A stretch of 64,000 nucleotides of DNA from a virus. Where the stretch lies: IMG/VR virus record IMGVR_UViG_3300025096_003663, positions 1 through 64,000 of that record; one strand, given 5' to 3'. Position 1 is the first letter of the stretch; every line of letters starts with the position of its first letter. The position numbers were made by a program, and so were the translations under genes. Positions 1,384-12,205 of the stretch are shown piece by piece. The notes below the pieces were generated by a model. That model did no database searches and was not told where the DNA came from. It was given only the letters and a program-made list of their open reading frames with translations.

Positions 1384-1635
1384 ATGGATTTTCGTCAGAT
1401 GACAAAGAAATTTTTACTTGGTGAATCCTATGATTCACCAAACATTAATAGCTATATCCAGTCCCTTAAAGAGGTGCTGGAAGCCTTAAAACCTTCCTCT
1501 CAATCTGATAAAATGAGAGTAGAGATGGCTCAAAGTCACTTAAGGGAAATAAAGAGAAATAATAGAAGACTTCAAGAAAAAGTTGATCTCTTGGAAGAGA
1601 GAGTAAGAATTTTCGAAGAGGGTAAAAAGGAATAA
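1384..1635 (+). CDS. small coiled-coil hypothetical protein
   Basis: 83-aa ORF tightly packed between neighbours, with a heptad-like C-terminus. Confidence 0.75.
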   Translation: MDFRQMTKKFLLGESYDSPNINSYIQSLKEVLEALKPSSQSDKMRVEMAQSHLREIKRNNRRLQEKVDLLEERVRIFEEGKKE

Positions 1636-1639
1636 GCTT

Positions 1640-4468
1640 ATGGGCGGATTAGCAGGACACATGAGTCATCTGTATGACAATCCAAACCTTTCTTTCTCTA
1701 AGATGAAAGACATTTTTAATAAGGCTACAAGAGGAGAGCTCGTTGGTACAGAAAAGACCGACGGGCAGAACCTTTTCGTATCTTATAGTGTCCGAGATAA
1801 GAAAGCTAAAGCGGCAAGAAATAAGTCTAATATAAAGTCGGGAGGATTAGATCCTGCCGGACTTGCCCAAAAGTTTGCCGGTAGAGGAAACTTAGAAAGA
1901 GCTTTCGTAGACGGCTTTGCTGCTTTTGAGCAGGCTGTACAATCTATGCCGATTGAGCTACAGATAGATCTTTTTGGACCCGATGCTAATATTTTCTATA
2001 ACGCCGAAATAATGGATCCGAGAAGCCCAAATGTCGTCAACTACGATACTAAAAATTTGGTAATCCATCGAGTGGGTCATCTTGCTCTCGATAAAGAGAC
2101 TGAAGAGACTGTACCAGTAGAATCGGAAGAGCTAGTATCTCAGCTCGAACAGGCATTGGGAGCTATTCAGGACACAAAAGAGGAAGAGGATTACGGAGTT
2201 CAGGTTAATGCTATAAAAAACCTAGAAAAGTTTACTAGCGACAGCCCTACAATGAAAATCACAAAAAGGCTCGATGATCTAATGAGATCCGCTGGTCTTT
2301 CCGACGAGAATGTTGTCGGCGATTATATTATTAAAAAAGTTAGTGAAAGAATCAACGAAAGCTTTCCGGCAGCCAATAAAGATATTAAAGATATGATCCT
2401 ACAGAGGACACTTGGTCAAAAGGGAGCTAATCTAACTAAGATACTTGCTAAAATCCCGAAAGAGGAAGCTGAATATCGAGATTCAGTCCGACAGTTTATT
2501 GCTGGTAGCAAAGACTTGATTAAGGAAATAATTTATCCACTAGAAGATATAGTCCACGACTTTTCAGTCTTAGCATTAAGCGGCTTGGAGAGTGTATTCA
2601 TCTTAGATAATCAGAAAGAAGTAGAGAGACTTAGGAAAGAAGTCGCCACTGCTATTAGATCCATAGAAGGATCGGGTTCTGATGAAGCTATGTCCATCTT
2701 GAGCAAGCAGTTACAAAAACTTAAATCAATTGATAATGTCTCGACAGCCTCAGAAGGCTTTGTTTTCGATTATGATGGGAAGACTTATAAATTTACTGGC
2801 AACTTTGCCCCGATTAATCAGCTTCTCGGATTATTCCGCTTTGGGCGAGGAGATATTCCCCCAATGAAGAAAATAGATGAAGAGCAAGAACAGTTCAACA
2901 GAATAGTTGCTGTTTTTCCCGGCAAGTTCAAGCCTCCTCATTCTGGGCATCTTGGAGCTGTCGAAGAGATTTATCCGACAACAGAAGAAATGTATATTTT
3001 AATTTCTCCAAGAGAGGATAAAGGTGTTACTGCTGAAGCCTCGAAGAAAATTTGGGATATATACCTAAACAGATACGGTCTTGCCGGCAAAGCACAAGCT
3101 TTTGTATCAACCCAGCTATTCCCCGCTGCTCCAAGTCCCGTACAGGCAACCTATGAGTTTATAGAAGAGTTTGTAGAGCCGGATGATAAAGTTATTTTGG
3201 TGCTGGGTGTGAAAGATATCAAAGATGGTAGATATGCCGGAGCAGTTAGAGTCGGTCAGAATAGAGGCATAGATGTAGAGATACAGCCCATACCTCCTCA
3301 AGCCGGCGGAATAAGTGCTAGCGGAGACATGAAGCCGGCTATGGAGGCGGGCGATGAAGAGAAGTTTAAATCCCTCCTTCCCGAGAAACTAAGCCCAGAA
3401 GACAAAGATAGAATATGGAAACTAGTTAAGGGAGAGGTATCGGAAATCTCTACTGCTTCTGCCGTAGTAGGCTATGCCGATGATAAATCCGAAGATGAAA
3501 AAGAGGAAAGTTATATGATAACGAGAGAAGATATTGTTTATGAAGAAAAAGTAAGAGAAGTTATTCGTAAGAAGATCGAAAACAGAGCTTCGGTTCTTAG
3601 CGAGACTAAAGAAGAAGATACCAGTGTGATTTATGTCTCCAAGGTTCAGAAAGAGAAAATAGACAACTTTCGACTAGAACACAAACTTAGAGAGTGTATT
3701 CATAAGTTGCTGCTGCAGGAAAAAGAAGATCTTCCTCCTCACAGAAGCACCGGCATCAATGTTTTACAAGTTCTGCTAAGGACAGTTGTTTCCTCCCTCA
3801 AGACTGGCTACAAATCCCTTACCACCGACATTGAACAAAGAAATTCTTTTCGAAGCCACATCATTAATGCTGTCGTTAATTCTTTGGCTCCAATCGAACT
3901 AGACGATGAAGCAGGACAAGAGCTAAAAGAGATCGATGTAGACATAAAGGATGATATGCCAGCAGACGCCGATAAATTCATTGACGTCGGCGACGAAGAT
4001 TTTGCTTTCGATGAAGAGGAAAAAGAATCATTCCAGACGCTGCCGGGCGAAGATTTGACCGGGCGAAATGTAGCAATGCATGCATATGATAGAATTGAGA
4101 AGCAGATAGTAGATGCATACGCCGATCTAGATAACCAGCAAGATCAGAAAATGTTTTATGATTATCTTATTGCCAACCTAAAACTTTATTTTGATAGGTT
4201 TGAAGATCAATTGCAAGATGAGCTTCCAGAACCTTCCAATGCTGCTTATGAAGAAGAGAAAGAAGACGAAGAAATGGGGGCAGCGATGGGCGAGACACCA
4301 TCAGACGAAGGAATTGAAGAGCTTGAAGAAATATATTCAGATAAGCAAAGAAAATGGGCTTGTGCTCAAACCAAGGGAAGCAGAAAAAGCTTCAAAGGTA
4401 AACCCTCTCTTTCTCCGAAAGAAGCAGAGGAAATGTGCTCCGCCGACATTGAAAAACCAAAAAAATGA
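1640..4468 (+). CDS. multidomain protein: ligase-like (KxDG) nucleotidyltransferase domain + HxGH cytidylyl/adenylyltransferase domain + acidic C-terminal region
   Basis: EKTDGQN, YNAEI, EGFVF and YKF resemble ligase motifs I, III, IV and V. FPGKFKPPHSGH is an HxGH motif, and ISAS resembles the ISSS/T signature. SD aagga upstream. Confidence 0.75.
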   Translation: MGGLAGHMSHLYDNPNLSFSKMKDIFNKATRGELVGTEKTDGQNLFVSYSVRDKKAKAARNKSNIKSGGLDPAGLAQKFAGRGNLERAFVDGFAAFEQAVQSMPIELQIDLFGPDANIFYNAEIMDPRSPNVVNYDTKNLVIHRVGHLALDKETEETVPVESEELVSQLEQALGAIQDTKEEEDYGVQVNAIKNLEKFTSDSPTMKITKRLDDLMRSAGLSDENVVGDYIIKKVSERINESFPAANKDIKDMILQRTLGQKGANLTKILAKIPKEEAEYRDSVRQFIAGSKDLIKEIIYPLEDIVHDFSVLALSGLESVFILDNQKEVERLRKEVATAIRSIEGSGSDEAMSILSKQLQKLKSIDNVSTASEGFVFDYDGKTYKFTGNFAPINQLLGLFRFGRGDIPPMKKIDEEQEQFNRIVAVFPGKFKPPHSGHLGAVEEIYPTTEEMYILISPREDKGVTAEASKKIWDIYLNRYGLAGKAQAFVSTQLFPAAPSPVQATYEFIEEFVEPDDKVILVLGVKDIKDGRYAGAVRVGQNRGIDVEIQPIPPQAGGISASGDMKPAMEAGDEEKFKSLLPEKLSPEDKDRIWKLVKGEVSEISTASAVVGYADDKSEDEKEESYMITREDIVYEEKVREVIRKKIENRASVLSETKEEDTSVIYVSKVQKEKIDNFRLEHKLRECIHKLLLQEKEDLPPHRSTGINVLQVLLRTVVSSLKTGYKSLTTDIEQRNSFRSHIINAVVNSLAPIELDDEAGQELKEIDVDIKDDMPADADKFIDVGDEDFAFDEEEKESFQTLPGEDLTGRNVAMHAYDRIEKQIVDAYADLDNQQDQKMFYDYLIANLKLYFDRFEDQLQDELPEPSNAAYEEEKEDEEMGAAMGETPSDEGIEELEEIYSDKQRKWACAQTKGSRKSFKGKPSLSPKEAEEMCSADIEKPKK

Positions 4469-4476
4469 TTTTTTTC

Positions 4477-4505
4477 TTGACTTTTATAAAATGATCAGGT
4501 ATTTT
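4477..4505 (+). promoter_or_regulatory. sigma70-type promoter
   Basis: TTGACT (4477-4482), 17-bp spacer, TATTTT (4500-4505), in the intergenic gap before the Fis-like gene. Confidence 0.6.
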
Positions 4506-4551
4506 AGTGAGGTGGTTGGGCAGGAGGCATCCAACAGCAGCATGGTGAGTG

Positions 4552-4926
4552 ATGAGTTGGAATAAGAAAAAGAGAGTATCAGGAAAAAATAAATATTATA
4601 GTATTAGAAGTAAATTAAAAAGAGAAAATAAAATTACTTCTGATTTTGAGATAATGTTAAATAATTTAACTTTAGAGGATATAATAGCTCTTAAGTTAGA
4701 ATATTCAATTAATGTTTCCGGCACACCTGTATATGGTCTGCAGTTAGCTAAATCATTGAGATATGTTTGTAAAGAGGCTCTCTATAAGCTAGCACTAAGC
4801 GCCACAAGGTCTAAAAACTCTGCTGCTCGGTTTCTCGGAGTTAGCGAGAACGATTTCCGGCAAGAACTTAAAAGAATGAGAATAGAGAGCTTCTTCTTGG
4901 ATGAAGAAGATGAAAAGAAAGCATAA
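4552..4926 (+). CDS. Fis/NtrC-type HTH DNA-binding protein
   Basis: The C-terminal KEALYKLALSATRSKNSAARFLGVSENDFRQELKR matches the Fis-family HTH pattern (AL....N...AA..LG.S). Confidence 0.65.
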   Translation: MSWNKKKRVSGKNKYYSIRSKLKRENKITSDFEIMLNNLTLEDIIALKLEYSINVSGTPVYGLQLAKSLRYVCKEALYKLALSATRSKNSAARFLGVSENDFRQELKRMRIESFFLDEEDEKKA

Positions 4927-5413
4927 GATAGTAGCTATTAGCGGCGGTTTTGATCCAATACACATTGGGCACCTTAAGCTTATCCAAGAAGCATCCAAAT
5001 ACGGCAAGGTTGTTATCATTTTGAATTCTGATAGCTGGCTCGTAAGAAAAAAAGGCTATTATTTTATGACTCATGAGGAGAGAGCCCAACTTCTAGAAGG
5101 AATGAAGAAAGTTCACAAAGTCGTGCTTTCTCTGGATCAGGATGACACAGTTTGTGAAACACTTGAGAAGATAAAACCTGATTACTTTGCCAATGGCGGC
5201 ACAATAAACAAAAATACAATATCTAAAAAAGAAATAGATACTTGTAAAAAACTTAATATTGAAATGATTTGGAGCATCGGCGGCTCTAAAATCCAAAGCA
5301 GTTCGGAACTAGTTGATAAACTCAAGATTCCCAAGTCAAACAAGAAGACGGAACTGGAAGCTTTTAAAGACATAATCGATTCCTTCAATAGTGTAAATTT
5401 TCTCAAGAAATAG
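4901..5413 (+). CDS. cytidylyltransferase/adenylyltransferase family protein (TagD/RfaE-II/RibL-like)
   Basis: ISGGFDPIHIGH (HxGH), NSD, ERAQLL, KPDYFANGG and KIQSSSEL. Start may be ATG 4910. Confidence 0.85.
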   Translation: MKKMKRKHKIVAISGGFDPIHIGHLKLIQEASKYGKVVIILNSDSWLVRKKGYYFMTHEERAQLLEGMKKVHKVVLSLDQDDTVCETLEKIKPDYFANGGTINKNTISKKEIDTCKKLNIEMIWSIGGSKIQSSSELVDKLKIPKSNKKTELEAFKDIIDSFNSVNFLKK

Positions 5414-5414
5414 C

Positions 5415-5443
5415 TTGTAATATCATTTATTTTATGATAATCT
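5415..5443 (+). promoter_or_regulatory. sigma70-type promoter for tRNA-aceB-aceA
   Basis: TTGTAA (5415-5420), 17-bp spacer, TAATCT (5438-5443) with an extended -10 TG (5435-5436), 15 nt before the tRNA. Confidence 0.5.
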
Positions 5444-5458
5444 CGTAATAAGCAATGA

Positions 5459-5535
5459 GTGTTCTTAGCTCAGTTGGTTAGAGCATCCGTCTTATAAGCG
5501 GAAGGTCGTGGGTTCAAAGCCCGTAGAGCACACCA
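5459..5535 (+). tRNA. trnI: tRNA-Ile with UAU anticodon, encoded CCA
   Basis: Cloverleaf: acceptor GTGTTCT/AGAGCAC, D stem GCTC/GAGC, anticodon stem TCCGT/GCGGA, loop CT-TAT-AA (anticodon 5493-5495), T arm GTGGG-TTCAAAG-CCCGT, discriminator A, then CCA. Confidence 0.9.
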
Positions 5536-5551
5536 AGAACTGGATATCTTA

Positions 5552-7213
5552 ATGAGAATAAAAGAATTCTGTGAATTGTTGAGAAAGTCTTCTTACAGCT
5601 TCGAACACGAACAAATTTGCCGGCTACGGGAAGATTTAAACGATAAAATGGATCCGAAAAGCTGGCTTTCTCTGTTTGAAAATTATTTTAAAAATTATAC
5701 CAACGAAAAGGAAGTGGAATATATTATGGAAGGAAAAGTAATCAACGAAAACACCTCTCAATTTTTAAATTTACTATCGGAAAATTTTTCGACGAAAATA
5801 CAATTATTATTAGAGAGTAGAGAGGACAAAACATCTCCGAGTAATAGGCTTGACTTCTTAAGGGAAACAAAACATGTAAGAGAGGGAAATTGGAAGATTA
5901 ACAAAATACCAGATAAGATTTTAGACAGGAGAGTAGAAATCACTGGACCTGTTGATCGAAAAATGATAATCAATGCCCTAAACTCAGGTGCAAATGTTTT
6001 TATGGCGGATTTTGAAGATTCAAACTCCCCAACTTGGGAGAACTGTGTCAATGGTCAGGTTAATCTATATGATGCTATTCGAAAAAATATTGATTTTACA
6101 GCAGACAACGGAAAAGAGTATAAATTAAATAAAAGCCCAGCAACTCTCTTTGTAAGACCAAGAGGGCTACATCTACAAGAAAAAAACTTTTTAAATTATG
6201 ATGGTGTTCCAATCCGAGCGGCACTCTTTGATTATGGAGTATTCGTATCTCTAAACATAAGAGAAATGGTTGATAGAGGAGAACCGCCTTGCTTTTACCT
6301 ACCAAAACTAGAAAGTTATTTAGAGGCGAGAGTCTGGGCAGAGATATTTGCTTTTACAGAAGAATATTTTAGTATCCAGAAAGGAACAATAAAAGCCACA
6401 GTATTAGTTGAGACTCTGCCACTAGCATTTCAAATGGATGAAGTGCTTTATGAGCTGAGAGAGTATTCTGCTGGACTTAATTGTGGAAGATGGGATTATA
6501 TTTTCAGTTTTATGAAAAACCTATCATCAGAAACATTACCAGACAGAGACCAGCTAACCATGTCAAGGCACTTTATGAGCTCATACACAAATCTCCTAGT
6601 TCATACCTGTCATAAGAGAGGCAGCCATGCTATGGGCGGAATGGCAGCACAAATACCAATTAAGAATAATCCAGAGGCAAACGAAGCAGCCTTAGAAAAA
6701 GTCAAAGAAGATAAAGAAAGAGAAGTGATAAATGGACACGACGGCACATGGGTTGCCCACCCAGGATTAATAGCTATAGCGAAAGAAGTTTTTGATTTAC
6801 ATATGAAAGGGAAAAACCAAATAGATAGGGAAGTGGAAACTTCCGTGACCCGAGAAGATCTTCTTAAGATACCGGATGGTGATTGTACAGAAGAATGCTT
6901 TCGAAAAAATATTAATATTGGATTTACATATCTGAACAGTTGGCTCGATGGCAAGGGGTGTGTGCCCATAAACAATCTTATGGAGGATGCCGCGACAGCA
7001 GAGATATCAAGAACTCAGCTTTGGCAATGGGTAAAAAATAAAGCAGAGTTAACAAATGGGAAAATATGTGGGGAAGAATACTTCACTAAAATATTAAATG
7101 AAGAGATAGAAGATTCCCACGAGAATTATTTAGCTAAGAAAATCTTTAAGAATTTATGTTTATCTGATAATCTAGATGAGTTCTTAACAACAGTCTGTTA
7201 CAAACATTTATAG
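5552..7213 (+). CDS. aceB: malate synthase A
   Basis: DRRVEITGP, NALNSGA, MADFEDS, LFVRPRG, FYLPKLE, GLNCGRWDYIFS, AMGGMAAQIP, GHDGTWVAHP and LMEDAATAEISR are all present. Confidence 0.97.
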   Translation: MRIKEFCELLRKSSYSFEHEQICRLREDLNDKMDPKSWLSLFENYFKNYTNEKEVEYIMEGKVINENTSQFLNLLSENFSTKIQLLLESREDKTSPSNRLDFLRETKHVREGNWKINKIPDKILDRRVEITGPVDRKMIINALNSGANVFMADFEDSNSPTWENCVNGQVNLYDAIRKNIDFTADNGKEYKLNKSPATLFVRPRGLHLQEKNFLNYDGVPIRAALFDYGVFVSLNIREMVDRGEPPCFYLPKLESYLEARVWAEIFAFTEEYFSIQKGTIKATVLVETLPLAFQMDEVLYELREYSAGLNCGRWDYIFSFMKNLSSETLPDRDQLTMSRHFMSSYTNLLVHTCHKRGSHAMGGMAAQIPIKNNPEANEAALEKVKEDKEREVINGHDGTWVAHPGLIAIAKEVFDLHMKGKNQIDREVETSVTREDLLKIPDGDCTEECFRKNINIGFTYLNSWLDGKGCVPINNLMEDAATAEISRTQLWQWVKNKAELTNGKICGEEYFTKILNEEIEDSHENYLAKKIFKNLCLSDNLDEFLTTVCYKHL

Positions 7214-7222
7214 GAGCAAAAA

Positions 7223-8446
7223 ATGAGCAATGAAATAAAGAGACCATATACCGACGAAGATGTCAAAAAATTGAGAGGTTCCGTAAGAGTGGAACATACT
7301 TTGGCTCGAAACGGGGCAGAAAAGCTAAGGAAGCTTCTCAGCGAGGAGAAATATATCAATGCACTCGGTGCTGTCACCGGTAACCAAGCTGTACAGCAAG
7401 TGAGAGGCGGATTAAAGGCAATATACTGTAGTGGTTGGCAAGTGGCAGCCGACGGAAACTTGGACGGCACTATGTATCCAGACCAAAGTTTATATTCAGC
7501 TAGAAGTGTGCCCTTGGTGGTAAAAAAAATAAATAATGCTCTACAGCGAGCCGATCAGGTAGACTCAGCAGAGGATATATCTGATAAAGATTGGTTTGCC
7601 CCTATCGTAGCCGATGCCGAAGCAGGTTTCGGCGGACCTCTAAATGCTTACGAGCTTATGAAATCTATGATTGAGGCTGGAGCAGCCGGAGTTCATTTCG
7701 AAGATCAACTTTCATCAGCAAAGAAGTGTGGGCATATGGGAGGTAAGGTTCTTATTCCCACCGGTCAGTTTATCAAGACTTTGATTGCCGCCAGATTAGC
7801 ATCAGATGTATCGGATGTTCCGACAGTGTTAGTAGCACGAACTGACGCCGATTCAGCCAAGCTATTAACATCTGATATCGATGAAAGGGATCACCCATTT
7901 ATTCTATCGAAAGAGCGGACGGCAGAGGGTTTCTTCCGGATCAAAGATGGTATAGAACCAGCTATAGCCCGAGCCTTGGCATATGCACCATATGCTGATA
8001 TGATTTGGTGTGAAACATCCAAGCCAGATTTGGAGCAGGCAAAGAAGTTTTCTGAAGCGGTAAAAAAAGAATTTCCGGACAAAATGCTAGCCTACAATTG
8101 TTCTCCCTCGTTCAATTGGAGAAAACATCTTGATGAGAAGACAATAAGAAAATTCCAAAATGAGCTCGGAGCTATGGGATACAAATTTCAGTTTGTTACA
8201 TTAGCAGGATTCCACACTTTGAATAATAGTATGTTTGAGCTTTCTGTAGGATACAAAGATACCGGAATGGAAGCTTATTCTGAACTTCAGGAAAGAGAGT
8301 TTTCCAATGCTTCTCTCGGCTATACTGCCGTCAAGCATCAGCGAGAAGTCGGAGCTGGGTATTTTGATTTAGTATCGAAGACTATCAGCGGCGATGAAGT
8401 ATCGACTTTGGCACTCAAAGAATCCACTGAAGAGGAGCAATTTTAA
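7223..8446 (+). CDS. aceA: isocitrate lyase
   Basis: [32 protein letters not shown], catalytic [25 protein letters not shown] and KHQREVG; SD ggag. Confidence 0.98.
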
Positions 8447-8640
8447 TGCCCATTTATGTTTACGAGTGCCAAGAATGCTCCGTGGTAAAGGAAGAGCTAC
8501 AAAAAAGCACTGAAGAGCCTCTCACGGACTGTGAGGGGTGTAATGGGGAGAACTCTTTGAAGAGGATTATAGGACTTTCTTCCTTCCAACTCAAAGGTAC
8601 CGGATGGTATAAGGATGGATACTCTAAGGGAGGAGAATGA
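8446..8640 (+). CDS. FmdB-family zinc-ribbon protein
   Basis: [11 protein letters not shown]...CEGC...LKRII...FQLKGTGWY. Confidence 0.85.
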   Translation: MPIYVYECQECSVVKEELQKSTEEPLTDCEGCNGENSLKRIIGLSSFQLKGTGWYKDGYSKGGE

Positions 8641-8870
8641 CATACATCAAGACTACAGACGAGAACTTGAATGTTATGAGGAATATTTTAAGGATCGCAC
8701 CGTCGCTAATAAAGATATCAGAACAAATGTTAGAAGAGATAGATGCTAACAATGATATCATCCAAGAGCTTGTAAGCGACTCTTTAGCTAACAAAGATCA
8801 GATAGAATATTTGGTATTGGAAAACGAAAGACTTAGTGACGAGAACGAAAAATTAAAAATAGTACACTAA
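8637..8870 (+). CDS. hypothetical coiled-coil protein
   Basis: ATGA overlap and SD ggagga; 77 aa. Confidence 0.7.
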   Translation: MTYIKTTDENLNVMRNILRIAPSLIKISEQMLEEIDANNDIIQELVSDSLANKDQIEYLVLENERLSDENEKLKIVH

Positions 8871-8871
8871 A

Positions 8872-9795
8872 CTATTCTCTGATTTTCCATCTCTCGGCTT
8901 CTTCTTCCTCAAGGATATCCCACTCTGGAACTTCTGTTCCCCAAAGGAATACTTTCTCTTCAACAACTATTTGAGGAGTGAAGTCCATGAACACTTTCAC
9001 TTTATGGGGAGTATTACCAGCCATAAGATCTTTTACTTGCTTCAGTGTCGGCGAGATTGTTAGATGGTGAAACCTTGTATACACAGCAGAAACGACACCG
9101 ATGACTTCCATATTCTTATTTAATAAAAGAGAACCAGAACTACCTGGTGCGGCAGGAAGAGAGAATAAGGAGTGCTTTTCTTCTGGAACATTAACAAATT
9201 TGAAGTTGCCGCTGAAATACCCCTTGAACATAGGCGAACCTTCGCTAGAATAAAGGCTAAGTGGCGAAGCGACATTATAAACGATTTCTCCTAAAACTGG
9301 GTCTTCGCCAGAAAGCACGAGAGCTCTAGCTCCTTCAATTTTGCTCACTTGGATTAAACAGGCATCAAACTTTGTTGCCGAAACATATGAGATGGCGGAA
9401 TAGACTCTATTCTTCCGATCAGATACTTTCAAGAAGTGTCTTACATCATCCGGATTCGGCACCTGACCTTTAATAGCCTCAATCAGGCTCGACACATCAC
9501 AGACATGAGCAGCAGTCAATACCACAGTGCTGTCCTTATCTTGCCAGATTATACCCCCAGAGCCGGTATATCCGGTGTAAGCTTTCTTTGTTTGCTTATC
9601 AACGACGACTCCCTCTACGAATACTGTGGAATTGTAAATTCCAGCAAGAGGAAAGTCTTCTCCAACCCCAGTGGTACAAGAAGAGGAGGCACTTAAGCCC
9701 TCGACGGTGCTTTTACTAGCCGTGCAGCTAATAGCCAGAGGAAGAAGTAGAGCGAATATCGATAAATTTTTGAGGTTATTTTTAATGTTAAACAT
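8872..9795 (-). CDS. trypsin-like (S1) serine protease, predicted lipoprotein
   Basis: Catalytic triad motifs TAAH, FDACL and PGSSGS; N-terminal K-rich then hydrophobic segment ending in the lipobox-like LAISC. Confidence 0.88.
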   Translation of the reverse strand: MFNIKNNLKNLSIFALLLPLAISCTASKSTVEGLSASSSCTTGVGEDFPLAGIYNSTVFVEGVVVDKQTKKAYTGYTGSGGIIWQDKDSTVVLTAAHVCDVSSLIEAIKGQVPNPDDVRHFLKVSDRKNRVYSAISYVSATKFDACLIQVSKIEGARALVLSGEDPVLGEIVYNVASPLSLYSSEGSPMFKGYFSGNFKFVNVPEEKHSLFSLPAAPGSSGSLLLNKNMEVIGVVSAVYTRFHHLTISPTLKQVKDLMAGNTPHKVKVFMDFTPQIVVEEKVFLWGTEVPEWDILEEEEAERWKIRE

Positions 9796-9817
9796 AAAGT
9801 ATCTATCTTTGAGAAAT

Positions 9818-9850
9818 ACTAAAATACCTGAAAGATACTATTTATCTCTA
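9818..9850 (-). promoter_or_regulatory. candidate promoter of the protease gene
   Basis: The minus strand reads TAGAGA-18bp-TATTTT. The 14-mer TCAGGTATTTTAGT is identical to 4495-4508. Confidence 0.35.
9835..9845 (+). promoter_or_regulatory. candidate phage promoter motif ATACTATTTAT
   Basis: 21 nt upstream of the phoH ATG; an identical 11-mer lies at 60306-60316. Confidence 0.45.
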
Positions 9851-9866
9851 GATCCACAGGATTTTT

Positions 9867-11195
9867 ATGAATAAAATCACTTATATTCTCGATACAAGTG
9901 TTTATCTACATGACGCAAATGCAATCTATCATTTTGGAGAAAATGATATCATAGTGCCCTTGAAAGTGCTTGAGGAAATAGACAAGCACAAAAAAAGGCA
10001 AGATGGTGTCGGCGCCAATTCTAGAAAAATAATAAGAACATTTGATGCCTTGAGAGAAAAAGGTAATCTCTCTAGGGGTGTTAAAATTGACGAGAACAAG
10101 GGCATACTCAAAACGGTGAGTGTCAACCAAGTAGAAGACTTGCCGCCAGATCTAGATAAAAACATTCCAGATCACATCATCGTCGGCACTGTCCTCAAGG
10201 TATGTGCCTCCGTGGGCAGAGACAACACTGTTCTTGTTACCAGAGATATAAACCTTAGAGTGATAGGCGACTCTCTAGATATTAAAACCGAAGATTTCAA
10301 TCCTGATAAAGTAGTTGAAGACACAGATGAGCTTTTCTCAGGGTTTAAAGAGGTTTCGATAGCTCAGGAAGAGATTGATCAATTTTATTCTGGAGATGAT
10401 TTCGTCTTAGAAGAAAAAGCTTCAGAAAACCTTCAGCCTAATGAGTTCATTATGTTATCATCAAATATAAATGAAAAATCAACAGCCCTCGCGAGATTCG
10501 TTGAAAAGGGCTCTCCGCTCGCTCCGATAAGAAATATAAACAGTAACAACAGCAATGTATGGGGAGTTAGACCAAAAAACAAGGAACAGAGCTATGCACT
10601 AGATTTGTTGCTGGATCCATCTATTCCGATAATAACCCTAGTAGGAAAAGCAGGTTGCGGAAAAACCCTGCTAGCAATTGCAGCGGGACTAGAGCAAACA
10701 ATAGGCGAAAGCAAACATTATGATAGAATGGTGGTGTCCCGTCCGGTTGAGCCAATGGGGAGAGATATAGGCTTCCTCCCAGGCACAATAGAGGAAAAGA
10801 TGGCACCATGGCTAGCACCAATACAAGATAACTTGGAATTCCTAATGGGCAACGAAAAAGAGACACTCGATATGTATATCGAAACAGGTAAGATCCAAGT
10901 TGAAGCGCTAACATATATCAGAGGCAGATCCATAGCAAACTCTTACATAATAATTGATGAAGCTCAGAACTTGACATCTCATGAATTAAAGACTATAATA
11001 ACAAGAGTTGGAGAGGGAACCAAAATAATTCTTACAGGAGATGTCGAACAGATAGATAATGCTTATGTTGATGAGACTTCCAATGGGCTAGCCTATGCTG
11101 TTGAGAAATTTAAGCCCTACAATTTATCTGGACATGTTACCTTATTGACTGGTGAACGATCCCTTGTTGCAACACTAGCATCAAAAATATTATAG
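9867..11195 (+). CDS. phoH: PIN-domain PhoH family ATPase (PhoH2/YlaK type)
   Basis: PIN motifs ILDTSVY, EEID and VTRDINLR; Walker A GKAGCGKT; IGFLPG, YIRGRS, IIDEAQN and TGDVEQID. Confidence 0.93.
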   Translation: MNKITYILDTSVYLHDANAIYHFGENDIIVPLKVLEEIDKHKKRQDGVGANSRKIIRTFDALREKGNLSRGVKIDENKGILKTVSVNQVEDLPPDLDKNIPDHIIVGTVLKVCASVGRDNTVLVTRDINLRVIGDSLDIKTEDFNPDKVVEDTDELFSGFKEVSIAQEEIDQFYSGDDFVLEEKASENLQPNEFIMLSSNINEKSTALARFVEKGSPLAPIRNINSNNSNVWGVRPKNKEQSYALDLLLDPSIPIITLVGKAGCGKTLLAIAAGLEQTIGESKHYDRMVVSRPVEPMGRDIGFLPGTIEEKMAPWLAPIQDNLEFLMGNEKETLDMYIETGKIQVEALTYIRGRSIANSYIIIDEAQNLTSHELKTIITRVGEGTKIILTGDVEQIDNAYVDETSNGLAYAVEKFKPYNLSGHVTLLTGERSLVATLASKIL

Positions 11196-11204
11196 GAGAA
11201 AAAA

Positions 11205-11513
11205 ATGAAAAATAAAGAACAAACAGCAGAAGCCTTGGCTACTGATGAGAATACCAATGAATCAAAGATGGCTGTACAGCCATCAGAGGGACCACTCAAA
11301 CATATGTTGGTAGACTATGTTGGAAAAGTATACACTCCAGATAATGGAGAGGTTACGGTAGAGATGGTTATTGAAACACTCGCTTCCGAGTTTCCAGAGT
11401 TCCTTTATGTAGTAGCTAAGGAGAACTGGTTACGAGGATACCAACAAGCGATGACTGATGTAGATAACTATGACAGTAGCGAAGAAGCAGAAAAAGAGGC
11501 TCTTTCAAAATGA
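11205..11513 (+). CDS. hypothetical protein
   Basis: SD aggag; 102-aa acidic ORF. Confidence 0.75.
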   Translation: MKNKEQTAEALATDENTNESKMAVQPSEGPLKHMLVDYVGKVYTPDNGEVTVEMVIETLASEFPEFLYVVAKENWLRGYQQAMTDVDNYDSSEEAEKEALSK

Positions 11514-12205
11514 GCTTCTTACGGGAATCTAATGAAAGAATGAAGTCGGTACATTTTCTGTGGGAAAACAGAATAGATGTATATAATAAAAAAGATTTAC
11601 CCCCAGAAATAGAGATAGACTCAATATTACAAAAGATATCTTCTATTTTGCCGACATCTTTCTTGGATAATATAGATTCTGTATATGTCGGCGAATTCGA
11701 CTCCCTCAAAAAGAGGGAGGTCGATTCCGTCTATCAGGATGGGGCAATATACATCGTTCCATCCTATGTTTTCGGCAAAGAAGAGCTTCTCAGGAACATT
11801 GTCCACGAGGTTGCCCATGCTGTTGAAGAGCAGAATTCCCTTGAAATCTACGGGGATAGGGAACTTGAGGGTGAATTCGTGAAAAAAAGGATAAAACTAC
11901 TTGACAAGCTGAAGTCAATAGGTTATGATATACCATCTATAGAGTTATTTACAGATTCGGAATACTCTTCCGAGCTTGATAATTATTTTTATAAAGAAGT
12001 GGGATATCCATTGATGGCTCAACTAACAAGTAATATGTTTTCTTCACCATATGGAGCCACTTCTTTAAGAGAATATTTCGCCAACTCTTTTGAGGATTAT
12101 TTTTTGGGCAACATGAAAGATGTTAAAATTATTAGCCCAAAGGTATATGATAAAATTAACAAACTCGTAAAGAAATCGGAGGAAAAAACATATGGCAACT
12201 TTTAA
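11510..12205 (+). CDS. zincin-like metallopeptidase
   Basis: IVHEVAHAVE (HExxH) with a downstream REYFANSF carrying the third-ligand Glu. Confidence 0.7.
   Translation: MSFLRESNERMKSVHFLWENRIDVYNKKDLPPEIEIDSILQKISSILPTSFLDNIDSVYVGEFDSLKKREVDSVYQDGAIYIVPSYVFGKEELLRNIVHEVAHAVEEQNSLEIYGDRELEGEFVKKRIKLLDKLKSIGYDIPSIELFTDSEYSSELDNYFYKEVGYPLMAQLTSNMFSSPYGATSLREYFANSFEDYFLGNMKDVKIISPKVYDKINKLVKKSEEKTYGNF

What the first reader, a model, noticed from the sequence alone, without database searches (positions are those of the whole stretch)
5552..8446. Complete glyoxylate shunt (aceB-aceA) in a tailed-phage genome
Seen: malate synthase A and isocitrate lyase with intact catalytic motifs, adjacent in aceBA order, flanked by phage-type genes (tRNA, FmdB ribbon, PIN-PhoH, later baseplate genes), with no aceK or iclR. 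Established: these two enzymes suffice to bypass the decarboxylating TCA steps and turn acetyl-CoA into C4 precursors. Having both on a bacteriophage is rare to my knowledge. Inference: the shunt redirects host lipid or acetate carbon into gluconeogenesis, which could also supply the GDP-sugar pathway 5 kb downstream.
Basis: partly seen in the sequence, partly recalled or inferred. Interest (0 to 1): 0.8.

Follow-up and report, generated by a model that had tools for sequence, protein, structure and literature searches.

The report
Glyoxylate shunt genes on marine phage
A large T4-like marine phage really does carry intact malate synthase and isocitrate lyase genes side by side, but the same gene pair on the same kind of phage was already published in 2017, so this is a solid and largely ordinary example.

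Summary
ORFs 5552-7213 and 7223-8446 are malate synthase A and isocitrate lyase. Both score above NCBIfam equivalog cut-offs, align full length to solved enzymes and keep the catalytic residues.

The record is an 81 kb fragment of a T4-like phage, about 45% complete. It is not a chimera:
- Contigs from other studies span the whole region at about 95.5% identity or bridge its junctions.
- Codon usage matches the rest of the phage.
- Related viral contigs share the pair and some flanking genes.

The claim of rarity needs qualifying. No genuine GenBank phage genome has both genes. In IMG/VR, however, 51 of 73 malate-synthase loci have isocitrate lyase within 3 kb. In a concatenated tree, 39 of 43 viral rows form one virus-only group.

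The kind is in print. Nishimura et al. 2017 described an aceBA operon in a complete 179 kb T4-like ocean virus that also carries GDP-sugar genes. Viromes showed aceAB in 2013.

Host, donor, expression and physiological role remain unknown. Interest is modest.

The parts
5459..5535 (+). tRNA-Ile with anticodon UAU, ending 16 nt before the aceB ORF. Probably on the same transcript.
   Evidence: ARAGORN. ATA makes up 38% of Ile codons in the rest of the phage and 53% in aceB. Contigs of the likely source run break inside it, and depth spikes there, as expected for a widely shared tRNA.
5552..7213 (+). aceB, malate synthase A, 553 aa. An alternative start at ATG 5726 (M59) would give 495 aa. Catalytic and Mg positions are R202, E287, D315 and D479.
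   Evidence: TIGR01344 685.8 bits vs cut-off 594.5. Pfam TIM-barrel and C-terminal domains. Aligns to 3cux_A (E 2e-168) and 3cuz_A (E 3e-142). The four residues are invariant in 19 sequences. Passages in PMC11347633 name Arg166 and Asp447 as catalytic in E. coli MSA. The 58-aa N-terminal extension is open in 9 of 9 relatives. GGAAGTGGA lies before ATG 5726.
7223..8446 (+). aceA, isocitrate lyase, 407 aa. The KKCGH catalytic loop is at residues 167-171 (nt 7721). The N-terminus is about 20 residues shorter than in the solved cellular enzymes.
   Evidence: NF011645 730.6 bits vs cut-off 562, with the match starting at model position 25. Aligns to 6lrp_A (E 8e-189) over residues 5-407. An AGGAG overlaps the aceB stop, 6 nt before the ATG.
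8446..8640 (+). 64-aa Zn-ribbon (FmdB-type) protein. Its ATG overlaps the aceA stop (TAATG), so it is translationally coupled.
   Evidence: PF09723 46.8 bits vs cut-off 34.4. Junction sequence with GAGGAG upstream. A homologue (54% identity) also follows aceA in L002.
8637..8870 (+). 77-aa ORF of unknown function, the last gene of the coupled unit (ATGA overlap, GGAGGA upstream). A convergent trypsin-like gene follows on the minus strand.
   Evidence: ORF list. No Pfam hit. Junction sequence.

Best explanation
This is a genuine auxiliary metabolic operon of a roughly 180 kb T4-like marine phage. It comprises aceB, aceA, a Zn-ribbon gene and orf77, transcribed with the tRNA-Ile(UAU) gene just upstream.

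Shown:
- Both enzymes are full length and carry the catalytic residues.
- Their codon usage is the phage's own.
- The four genes are tightly coupled with strong Shine-Dalgarno sites.
- The pair belongs to a deep, virus-only aceBA group.

Inferred:
- During infection the phage adds isocitrate lyase and malate synthase to the host's TCA cycle.
- Isocitrate is then split into succinate and glyoxylate, and glyoxylate plus acetyl-CoA gives malate.
- This skips both CO2-releasing steps, so acetyl units from host lipid, acetate or storage polymer become C4 acids. Those feed aspartate and nucleotide synthesis, and gluconeogenesis.
- It also lowers NADH production.

No AceK or IclR is found in the 81 kb held. 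Flux at the isocitrate branch would therefore depend on enzyme dose or on host control.
For: Enzyme identity and integrity:
- Equivalog scores are above the cut-offs.
- Both proteins align full length to solved ICL and MSA.
- R202, E287, D315 and D479 are invariant in 19 MSA sequences.
- Arg166 and Asp447 are named catalytic in E. coli MSA (passages).
- KKCGH is present.

Phage context:
- Terminase, T4 portal, prohead protease and baseplate wedge are present.

Not a chimera:
- Run X4, from another study, has one 6,471-base contig spanning 4500-9900 with 243 differences.
- Run X2, from another study, has near-identical contigs over 5488-7157 and 7138-7362. These bridge the tRNA/aceB and aceB/aceA junctions.
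- By fit to the phage's codon usage, aceA ranks 19 and aceB 35 of 38 genes.

Conservation in viruses:
- 7 of 12 other viral records have MSA above the cut-off.
- 51 of 73 IMG/VR MSA loci have ICL within 3 kb on the same strand.
- 39 of 43 viral rows lie on one side of a branch with SH-aLRT 100.

Coupling: junction sequences.

Physiological plausibility, from passages read:
- Host aceA and aceB were the most induced genes in a Pseudoalteromonas phage infection.
- The shunt is induced under iron limitation in marine heterotrophs.
- The same operon was reported in a 179 kb T4-like virus.
Against: - There is no expression or activity data.
- The host is unknown, so I cannot say whether it already has the shunt.
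- Without AceK, ICL must compete with isocitrate dehydrogenase. From memory, ICL has the weaker affinity for isocitrate in E. coli.
- The aceB start is unresolved (5552 or 5726).
- Sigma-70-like sites are not enriched (16 found, 13.9 expected). The T4 late motif is not enriched either (4 found, 3.98 expected). The timing of expression is therefore unknown.
- Several AT-rich viral rows in the trees have deviant composition, which could inflate their grouping.
- The trees used a quick search and the LG+G4 model only.
Confidence: 0.7

Rival explanations
1. Redox and iron sparing is the selected benefit, rather than carbon supply. By bypassing the two NADH-yielding decarboxylations, the phage shunt lowers the load on iron-rich complex I and cuts reactive oxygen. 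This keeps an iron-limited host productive until lysis.
For: Passages in PMC11069385 link shunt induction to iron limitation in marine heterotrophs. [quoted passage not shown] The phage and its relatives come from marine and seawater metagenomes.
Against: Nothing in the sequence separates this from the carbon-conservation reading, and the two are not exclusive. No iron-related genes turned up among the proteins I annotated.
Confidence: 0.25
2. Host-fitness gene of a lysogenic or pseudolysogenic phase, as proposed for the published 179 kb genome. AceA and AceB would promote growth of a carrier cell, and the sugar genes would remodel its surface.
For: Proposed by Nishimura et al. 2017 (section 17 read in full). 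Their grounds were LPS and capsule genes plus a zeta-toxin homologue in that genome. This record also has Gmd and an Fcl-like gene.
Against: The head and packaging genes are T4-like, and from memory such phages are lytic. The 81 kb held has no integrase and no zeta toxin. But only about 45% of the genome is held, so these absences are weak evidence.
Confidence: 0.12
3. Assembly chimera or host contamination: the two genes are bacterial DNA wrongly joined to a phage contig.
For: In the run that may be the source (X1), Logan contigs break inside the tRNA gene just upstream of aceB.
Against: - Contigs from other studies cross that break: X3 spans 4500-6376 and X4 spans 4500-9900. X2 bridges both junctions.
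- Codon usage and GC match the phage.
- Related viral contigs share aceBA and the flanking genes.
- The best cellular MSA is only 50-58% identical.
Confidence: 0.02
4. Decaying passenger genes with no present function.
For: None directly. There is no expression evidence either way.
Against: - Both frames are open and full length.
- Catalytic positions are invariant across 19 MSA sequences whose identity to the query runs from 54 to 66%.
- The pair is retained across a deep viral group of 39 rows.
- Translational coupling with strong SD sites is intact.
Confidence: 0.03

Closest known systems
aceBA operon of the environmental viral genome TARA_ERS478052_N000008 (Nishimura et al. 2017, mSphere, PMC5332604; section 17 read in full)
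   Same: - Same gene order, aceB then aceA.
- T4-like structural genes.
- Genome size of 179 kb, against about 180 kb inferred here (81,247 bases at 45% completeness).
- Marine origin and unknown host.
- Gmd and WcaG-type GDP-sugar genes in the same genome.
   Different: I could not measure sequence identity. KdsA and zeta toxin, reported there, were not found in the 81 kb held here. Here aceB carries a 58-aa N-terminal extension seen only in relatives whose cores are 86.5-100% identical.
aceA and aceB reads in Pacific Ocean viromes (Hurwitz et al. 2013, Genome Biol, PMC4053976; passages read)
   Same: The same two enzymes, attributed to marine viruses and interpreted as reprogramming of the TCA cycle and glyoxylate shunt.
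   Different: Those were virome gene families without genome context. Here both genes sit on one contig with phage hallmark genes.
Bacterial aceBAK operon of E. coli under IclR control (textbook knowledge; Cozzone 1998 as cited)
   Same: Same aceB-aceA order and the same two enzyme families. E. coli MSA 3cuz_A aligns at E 3e-142 and E. coli ICL 1igw_A at E 1e-157.
   Different: No aceK and no IclR in the held part. Instead a Zn-ribbon gene and a 77-aa ORF are coupled downstream. The ICL is about 20 residues shorter at the N-terminus.
Glyoxylate-shunt genes of giant viruses (Moniruzzaman et al. 2020, Nat Commun, PMC7136201; passages read)
   Same: Virus-encoded ICL and MS, interpreted as control of host central carbon metabolism. 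Giant-virus MAG contigs appear among the IMG/VR MSA hits.
   Different: Those infect eukaryotes. Their MSAs are only 37-49% identical to this one, and an ICL at 50% identity or more was not found within 3 kb.
Phage C48C1 (OQ984149.1, Kyanoviridae, complete 156 kb)
   Same: It is the only genuine GenBank phage genome with an ICL relative (57% identity), and it has a T4-type portal.
   Different: It has no malate synthase of type A or G. Its ICL groups with L008 and a gammaproteobacterial MAG, away from the window's group. It is annotated there as a hypothetical protein.

Membership tests
Malate synthase A (TIGR01344, EC 2.3.3.9) | Whole-protein score above the curated equivalog cut-off | tested here: met
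   685.8 bits vs 594.5. The malate synthase G model scores only 28.9 bits vs 565.
Malate synthase A (TIGR01344, EC 2.3.3.9) | TIM-barrel and C-terminal domains | tested here: met
   PF01274 322 bits and PF20659 114 bits. The N-terminal domain model PF20656 gave no hit at E 0.001 or better.
Malate synthase A (TIGR01344, EC 2.3.3.9) | Catalytic Arg166 and Asp447 of E. coli MSA, and the Mg ligands Glu250 and Asp278. The ligand labels are recalled from memory. | tested here: met
   Aligned to R202, D479, E287 and D315. All four are invariant in 19 sequences. The Arg166 and Asp447 roles come from passages in PMC11347633.
Malate synthase A (TIGR01344, EC 2.3.3.9) | Enzyme activity (glyoxylate + acetyl-CoA to malate) | not testable with these tools
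   Needs an assay or complementation.
Isocitrate lyase (NF011645 / TIGR01346, EC 4.1.3.1) | Whole-protein score above the curated equivalog cut-off, and not methylisocitrate lyase | tested here: met
   NF011645 730.6 vs 562. TIGR01346 568.6 vs 275.9. prpB 105.4 vs 354.4.
Isocitrate lyase (NF011645 / TIGR01346, EC 4.1.3.1) | KKCGH catalytic loop. The motif's role is recalled from memory. | tested here: met
   KKCGHMGGK aligns identically to 6lrp_A and 3i4e_A, at residues 167-171.
Isocitrate lyase (NF011645 / TIGR01346, EC 4.1.3.1) | Enzyme activity | not testable with these tools
   Needs an assay or complementation.
Viral aceBA operon of T4-like marine phages (Nishimura 2017) | aceB and aceA adjacent on a viral genome with T4-like structural genes | tested here: met
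Viral aceBA operon of T4-like marine phages (Nishimura 2017) | Genome of about 179 kb | tested here: inconclusive
   Only 81,247 bases are held, and CheckV estimates 45% completeness. About 180 kb is an extrapolation.
Viral aceBA operon of T4-like marine phages (Nishimura 2017) | LPS/capsule sugar genes in the same genome (Gmd, WcaG, ManC, NeuA, KdsA, WaaG) and a zeta toxin | tested here: inconclusive
   Gmd 421.6 bits. Fcl-like 278.7 bits, below its 500 cut-off. GT1 and GT2 glycosyltransferases. KdsA and zeta toxin were not found in the 81 kb, but the record is a fragment.
Viral aceBA operon of T4-like marine phages (Nishimura 2017) | Sequence relatedness to TARA_ERS478052_N000008 | not testable with these tools
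   That sequence is in no searchable collection here, and supplements are closed.
Enterobacterial aceBAK / IclR regulon | AceK kinase/phosphatase and IclR repressor | tested here: not met
   PF06315: 0 matches. PF01614: 0 matches. Both searches covered only the 81 kb held.

The most novel reading that the evidence does not exclude
The phage aceBA operon is an old, virus-only lineage that has escaped cellular AceK/IclR control. In this sublineage it has gained its own control module, made of two parts. One is the 58-residue N-terminal extension on malate synthase. The other is the pair of translationally coupled downstream genes, a Zn-ribbon (FmdB-type) protein and a 77-aa protein. Together they would gate flux at the isocitrate branch point during infection, possibly coordinated with the phage's GDP-sugar pathway.
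Probability: 0.1. Interest if true: 0.55.

Novelty: already known. Interest (0 to 1): 0.3.

Why it matters
Virus-encoded glyoxylate shunts would change how much carbon an infected marine bacterium respires and how much it keeps. That bears on ocean carbon budgets. No cultured phage carries the pair, so its function has never been tested.

- The pair is not a one-off. It marks a deep, apparently virus-only group of large marine phages.
- It is fully adapted to phage codon usage.
- A separate set of phages carries isocitrate lyase alone.

These are useful leads for anyone choosing genes for biochemical tests, but they do not change the picture.

Tried and rejected
- Single-sequence AceB scan of IMG/VR found nothing. 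The alignment-based scan later found 73 loci, so the blank was a limit of sensitivity.
- PHROGs has no family for either enzyme.
- T4 late-promoter motif: 4 found, 3.98 expected. Sigma-70-like sites: 16 found, 13.9 expected. Terminator-like sites: 7 found, 4.2 expected. No usable regulatory signal came out of these.
- T4 portal in the related records: 2 of 11. The others are fragments, so this says little.
- Donor search: the best 80 of at least 600 cellular MSA loci are 50-58% identical and span many phyla. No sister group is resolved for AceB. For AceA, the nearest named cellular rows are Myxococcota, Planctomycetota and Dormiibacterota. I name no donor.
- Host clues conflict: bS21, strong SD sites, and nearest isolated portals at only 38-39% identity from a Microcystis phage and a Flavobacterium phage.
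- Cluster look-up returned no source names.
- No RNA holder was listed among the sequencing runs. This says nothing about expression.
- A literature search for C48C1 found only an unrelated paper.
- Supplement Table S1G of PMC5332604, which lists the published genome's genes, could not be read because supplements are closed.

Rows dropped before the trees:
- One search used AceB HSPs of 380 aa or more. Of the 120 listed homologues it took the first 30 plus every fourth of the rest, and only those over 450 aa.
- One search used AceA HSPs of 280 aa or more at 50% identity or more, with a thinned subset of the listed homologues.
- One search dropped 6 near-duplicate cellular rows, going from 64 to 58.
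- One search added 34 of the 73 new loci. The rest were records already present (7), loci without both genes, short HSPs, or identical pairs.
- In one search, one locus classed as A-to-B (L104) has coordinates showing aceA starting just inside the aceB end. The true split is probably 45 and 6, not 44 and 7. One B-to-A locus (L160, a giant-virus MAG) has only a 30% identical ICL-family hit.
Full report
**What is there**

The window is the first 64 kb of an 81,247-base IMG/VR virus record that CheckV rates about 45% complete.

ORF 5552-7213 (553 aa) scores 685.8 bits on the malate synthase A equivalog TIGR01344, against a cut-off of 594.5. It scores only 28.9 bits on the malate synthase G model. 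ORF 7223-8446 (407 aa) scores 730.6 bits on the isocitrate lyase equivalog NF011645, against a cut-off of 562. It scores only 105 bits on methylisocitrate lyase, whose cut-off is 354. Pfam agrees.

**Are the enzymes intact?**

The ICL aligns over residues 5-407 to solved isocitrate lyases (6lrp_A, E 8e-189). The KKCGHMGGK loop is identical and sits at residues 167-171.

The MSA aligns to B. anthracis MSA (3cux_A, E 2e-168) and E. coli MSA (3cuz_A, E 3e-142). E. coli chain positions R165, E249, D277 and D446 correspond to UniProt Arg166, Glu250, Asp278 and Asp447. They align to R202, E287, D315 and D479. All four are invariant in a 19-sequence alignment of viral, metagenomic and cellular MSAs. 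Passages in PMC11347633 state that Arg166 and Asp447 are the catalytic residues of E. coli MSA. The Mg-ligand labels are my recollection.

**Two lineage features**

- The viral ICLs are short at the N-terminus. The match starts at model position 25, and close relatives are 406-411 aa, against 412-454 aa for the more distant proteins listed.
- This aceB has a 58-residue N-terminal extension. It stays open without indels in 9 of 9 close relatives. It is 35/58 identical in the most distant of them, whose core is 86.5% identical.
- More distant relatives are 495-507 aa. That length matches a start at ATG 5726, which is preceded by GGAAGTGGA. ATG 5552 has no Shine-Dalgarno. Which start is used remains open.

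**Is it a phage?**

Yes. The window has a baseplate wedge gene. The rest of the record has a primase, an SbcCD-like nuclease, a large terminase, a T4 gp20-type portal (Pfam 254 bits) and a prohead protease. The nearest isolated phages by portal are only 38-39% identical: Microcystis phage Mel-JY01 and the Flavobacterium phage 'immuto'. So this is a deep T4-like lineage with no cultured close relative.

**Is it a chimera?**

No.

- I laid Logan contigs of four runs on 4400-9900. In the run that may be the source (X1), contigs break inside the tRNA.
- Other studies cross that break. X4 has one 6,471-base contig over 4500-9900 with 243 differences and two compensating single-base indels. X3 covers 4500-6376.
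- X2 has near-identical contigs over 5488-7157 and 7138-7362. These bridge the tRNA/aceB junction and the aceB/aceA junction.
- By fit to the phage's own synonymous codon usage, aceA ranks 19 and aceB 35 of 38 genes. Their GC is 0.435 and 0.360, against a gene mean of 0.409 (sd 0.029).
- ATA supplies 38% of Ile codons in the phage and 53% in aceB. That fits the tRNA-Ile(UAU) gene 16 nt upstream.

**Local organisation**

- An AGGAG overlaps the aceB stop, 6 nt before the aceA ATG.
- The aceA stop overlaps the ATG of a 64-aa Zn-ribbon gene (TAATG, with GAGGAG upstream).
- That gene overlaps a 77-aa ORF (ATGA, with GGAGGA upstream).
- The four genes therefore form one translationally coupled unit. 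It ends where a convergent trypsin-like gene begins.
- AceK, IclR, integrase, KdsA and zeta toxin are absent from the 81 kb held. This is a fragment, so those absences are weak.

**How common is it?**

In 50,697 GenBank phage records, tblastn with AceA hit 9 records and AceB hit 4. Going by their titles and lengths, all but one are bacterial WGS contigs or fragments under 5 kb. The exception is Phage C48C1, a complete 156 kb Kyanoviridae genome. It has an ICL (57% identity, annotated as hypothetical) but no malate synthase of either type.

IMG/VR gives a different picture:
- A scan with AceA found 11 loci. Seven of them have MSA next to the ICL.
- A scan with an MSA alignment found 73 loci. 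Of these, 51 have an ICL hit within 3 kb on the same strand.
- The 22 without are mainly giant-virus MAGs and other hits at 37-49% identity, or loci cut at a contig end.
- AceA and AceB clusters from the large protein collection also share contig lengths (82,424; 101,733; 73,481; 39,537 and others). That suggests co-carriage, but it is an inference.

**Phylogeny**

- Single-gene FastTrees put the window among metagenome and IMG/VR sequences, with weak basal support (77 for AceB; 83 for AceA).
- A concatenated AceB+AceA tree (IQ-TREE quick, LG+G4) was built with 58 rows. It separates the 8 viral rows plus L015 from all 49 cellular rows at SH-aLRT 100.
- L015 is labelled as an Ectothiorhodospiraceae MAG contig. 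Its flanks match IMG/VR phage contigs on both sides (up to 77% amino-acid identity) and its GC is 0.375. It is a mis-binned phage fragment.
- With 34 more IMG/VR rows (92 rows in all), 39 of 43 viral rows lie on one side of a branch with SH-aLRT 100.
- The four exceptions fall among cellular lineages: L139 (GC 0.59), L129 (GC 0.51), and L105 and L127 (A-to-B gene order). They may be separate acquisitions or misclassified contigs.
- Caveats: quick searches, a single-matrix model, deviant composition in several viral rows, and cellular references picked by MSA similarity only.
- No donor can be named. The best cellular MSAs are 50-58% identical and spread over many phyla.
- The ICLs of C48C1 and the 236 kb contig L008 group elsewhere, with a gammaproteobacterial MAG (98). 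That suggests an independent gain of ICL alone.

**What is already known**

- Nishimura et al. 2017 (section 17 read in full) reported an aceBA operon in a complete 179 kb Tara Oceans viral genome. [quoted passage not shown] They called it the first aceBA operon seen in a complete viral genome.
- Hurwitz et al. 2013 (passages) found aceAB in photic Pacific viromes.
- Later papers mention viral aceA in lake sediments (passages) and glyoxylate-shunt genes in giant viruses (passages).
- The present record matches the 2017 description in gene order, phage type, extrapolated size and linked GDP-sugar genes. I could not compare the sequences themselves.

**Mechanism**

The best-supported reading is a working auxiliary metabolic operon. 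It adds ICL and MS to the host TCA cycle during infection, saving carbon as C4 acids and reducing NADH output.

- Shown: integrity, coupling, amelioration and deep conservation in viruses.
- Inferred: expression, activity, and which benefit is selected (carbon supply or redox and iron sparing).
- Host aceA and aceB were the most induced genes in a Pseudoalteromonas phage infection, according to a review (passages).
- The shunt is induced under iron limitation in marine heterotrophs (passages).
Gmd-grade genes occur in 3 of the 4 aceBA records over 50 kb and in the published genome. But in G002 Gmd is about 38 kb away, and there is no baseline frequency.
- The lysogeny-based reading of the 2017 paper has no support in the 81 kb held, though the fragment cannot exclude it.

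**Earlier notes of this scan**

They flagged the bS21 gene, the glycan locus, the tRNA-Ile(UAU) and a ligase-nucleotidyltransferase fusion in this genome. I confirmed bS21 and parts of the glycan locus. None of the notes listed covered the aceBA pair itself.

**Verdict**

The kind is already published. Interest is 0.3.

Noticed in passing
L014 (OQ984149.1 44175-45416) and L008 (IMGVR_UViG_3300032322_002561): Phage C48C1 is a complete 156 kb Kyanoviridae genome. The 236 kb IMG/VR contig behind L008 is a second case. Both carry isocitrate lyase but no malate synthase of type A or G. Their ICLs group apart from the aceBA phages. In C48C1 the gene is annotated as hypothetical. What ICL alone would do in a cyanophage-family virus is unexplained.
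   Followed up: partly
L015 (CAYMMQ010000074.1, 11 kb contig of an 'Ectothiorhodospiraceae' MAG): The flanks on both sides of its aceBA match IMG/VR phage contigs L003, L006, L009 and L012, and its GC is 0.375. It looks like a phage fragment mis-binned into a bacterial MAG.
   Followed up: yes
window 5552-5725: A 58-residue N-terminal extension on malate synthase. It occurs only in relatives whose cores are 86.5-100% identical. It is open in 9 of 9 of them, and its first 28 residues are well conserved. Its function is unknown, and it is not certain that it is translated.
   Followed up: partly
window 1384-4926; L003 19410-21212; L012 7728-10485: An 83-aa ORF and a 942-aa protein are shared with L003 and L012. 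A 125-aa ORF is shared with L003 only. In those contigs the genes sit at a different position relative to aceBA. The 942-aa protein has only weak nucleotidyltransferase hits.
   Followed up: partly
record positions 77800-77946 (beyond the window): A ribosomal protein bS21 gene lies near the head-gene cluster (PF01165, 35.5 bits). Its use as a host clue conflicts with the strong Shine-Dalgarno sites seen at 7211-7216, 8429-8440 and before 8637.
   Followed up: partly
window 5854 and 5862: Relatives about 95% identical (runs X3 and X4) have a 1-base insertion and a 1-base deletion 8 bases apart inside aceB. This compensating pair changes 2-3 residues.
   Followed up: no
L141-L143, L148, L152-L154, L160, L164 (IMG/VR GVMAG contigs): Giant-virus MAG contigs encode malate synthase A relatives at 37-49% identity. 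None has an ICL at 50% identity or more within 3 kb.
   Followed up: no
window 11510-12205: A 231-aa ORF gives a weak, sub-threshold Pfam hit to the ATLF domain family (21.6 bits against a cut-off of 27.4, with no stretch passing on its own). It is probably not meaningful.
   Followed up: no
L002 (IMGVR_UViG_3300033388_005719, 5.3 kb): Its ICL is 81% identical to the window's and is followed by the same Zn-ribbon gene. But there is no malate synthase in the 1.9 kb upstream or anywhere else on the fragment.
   Followed up: no
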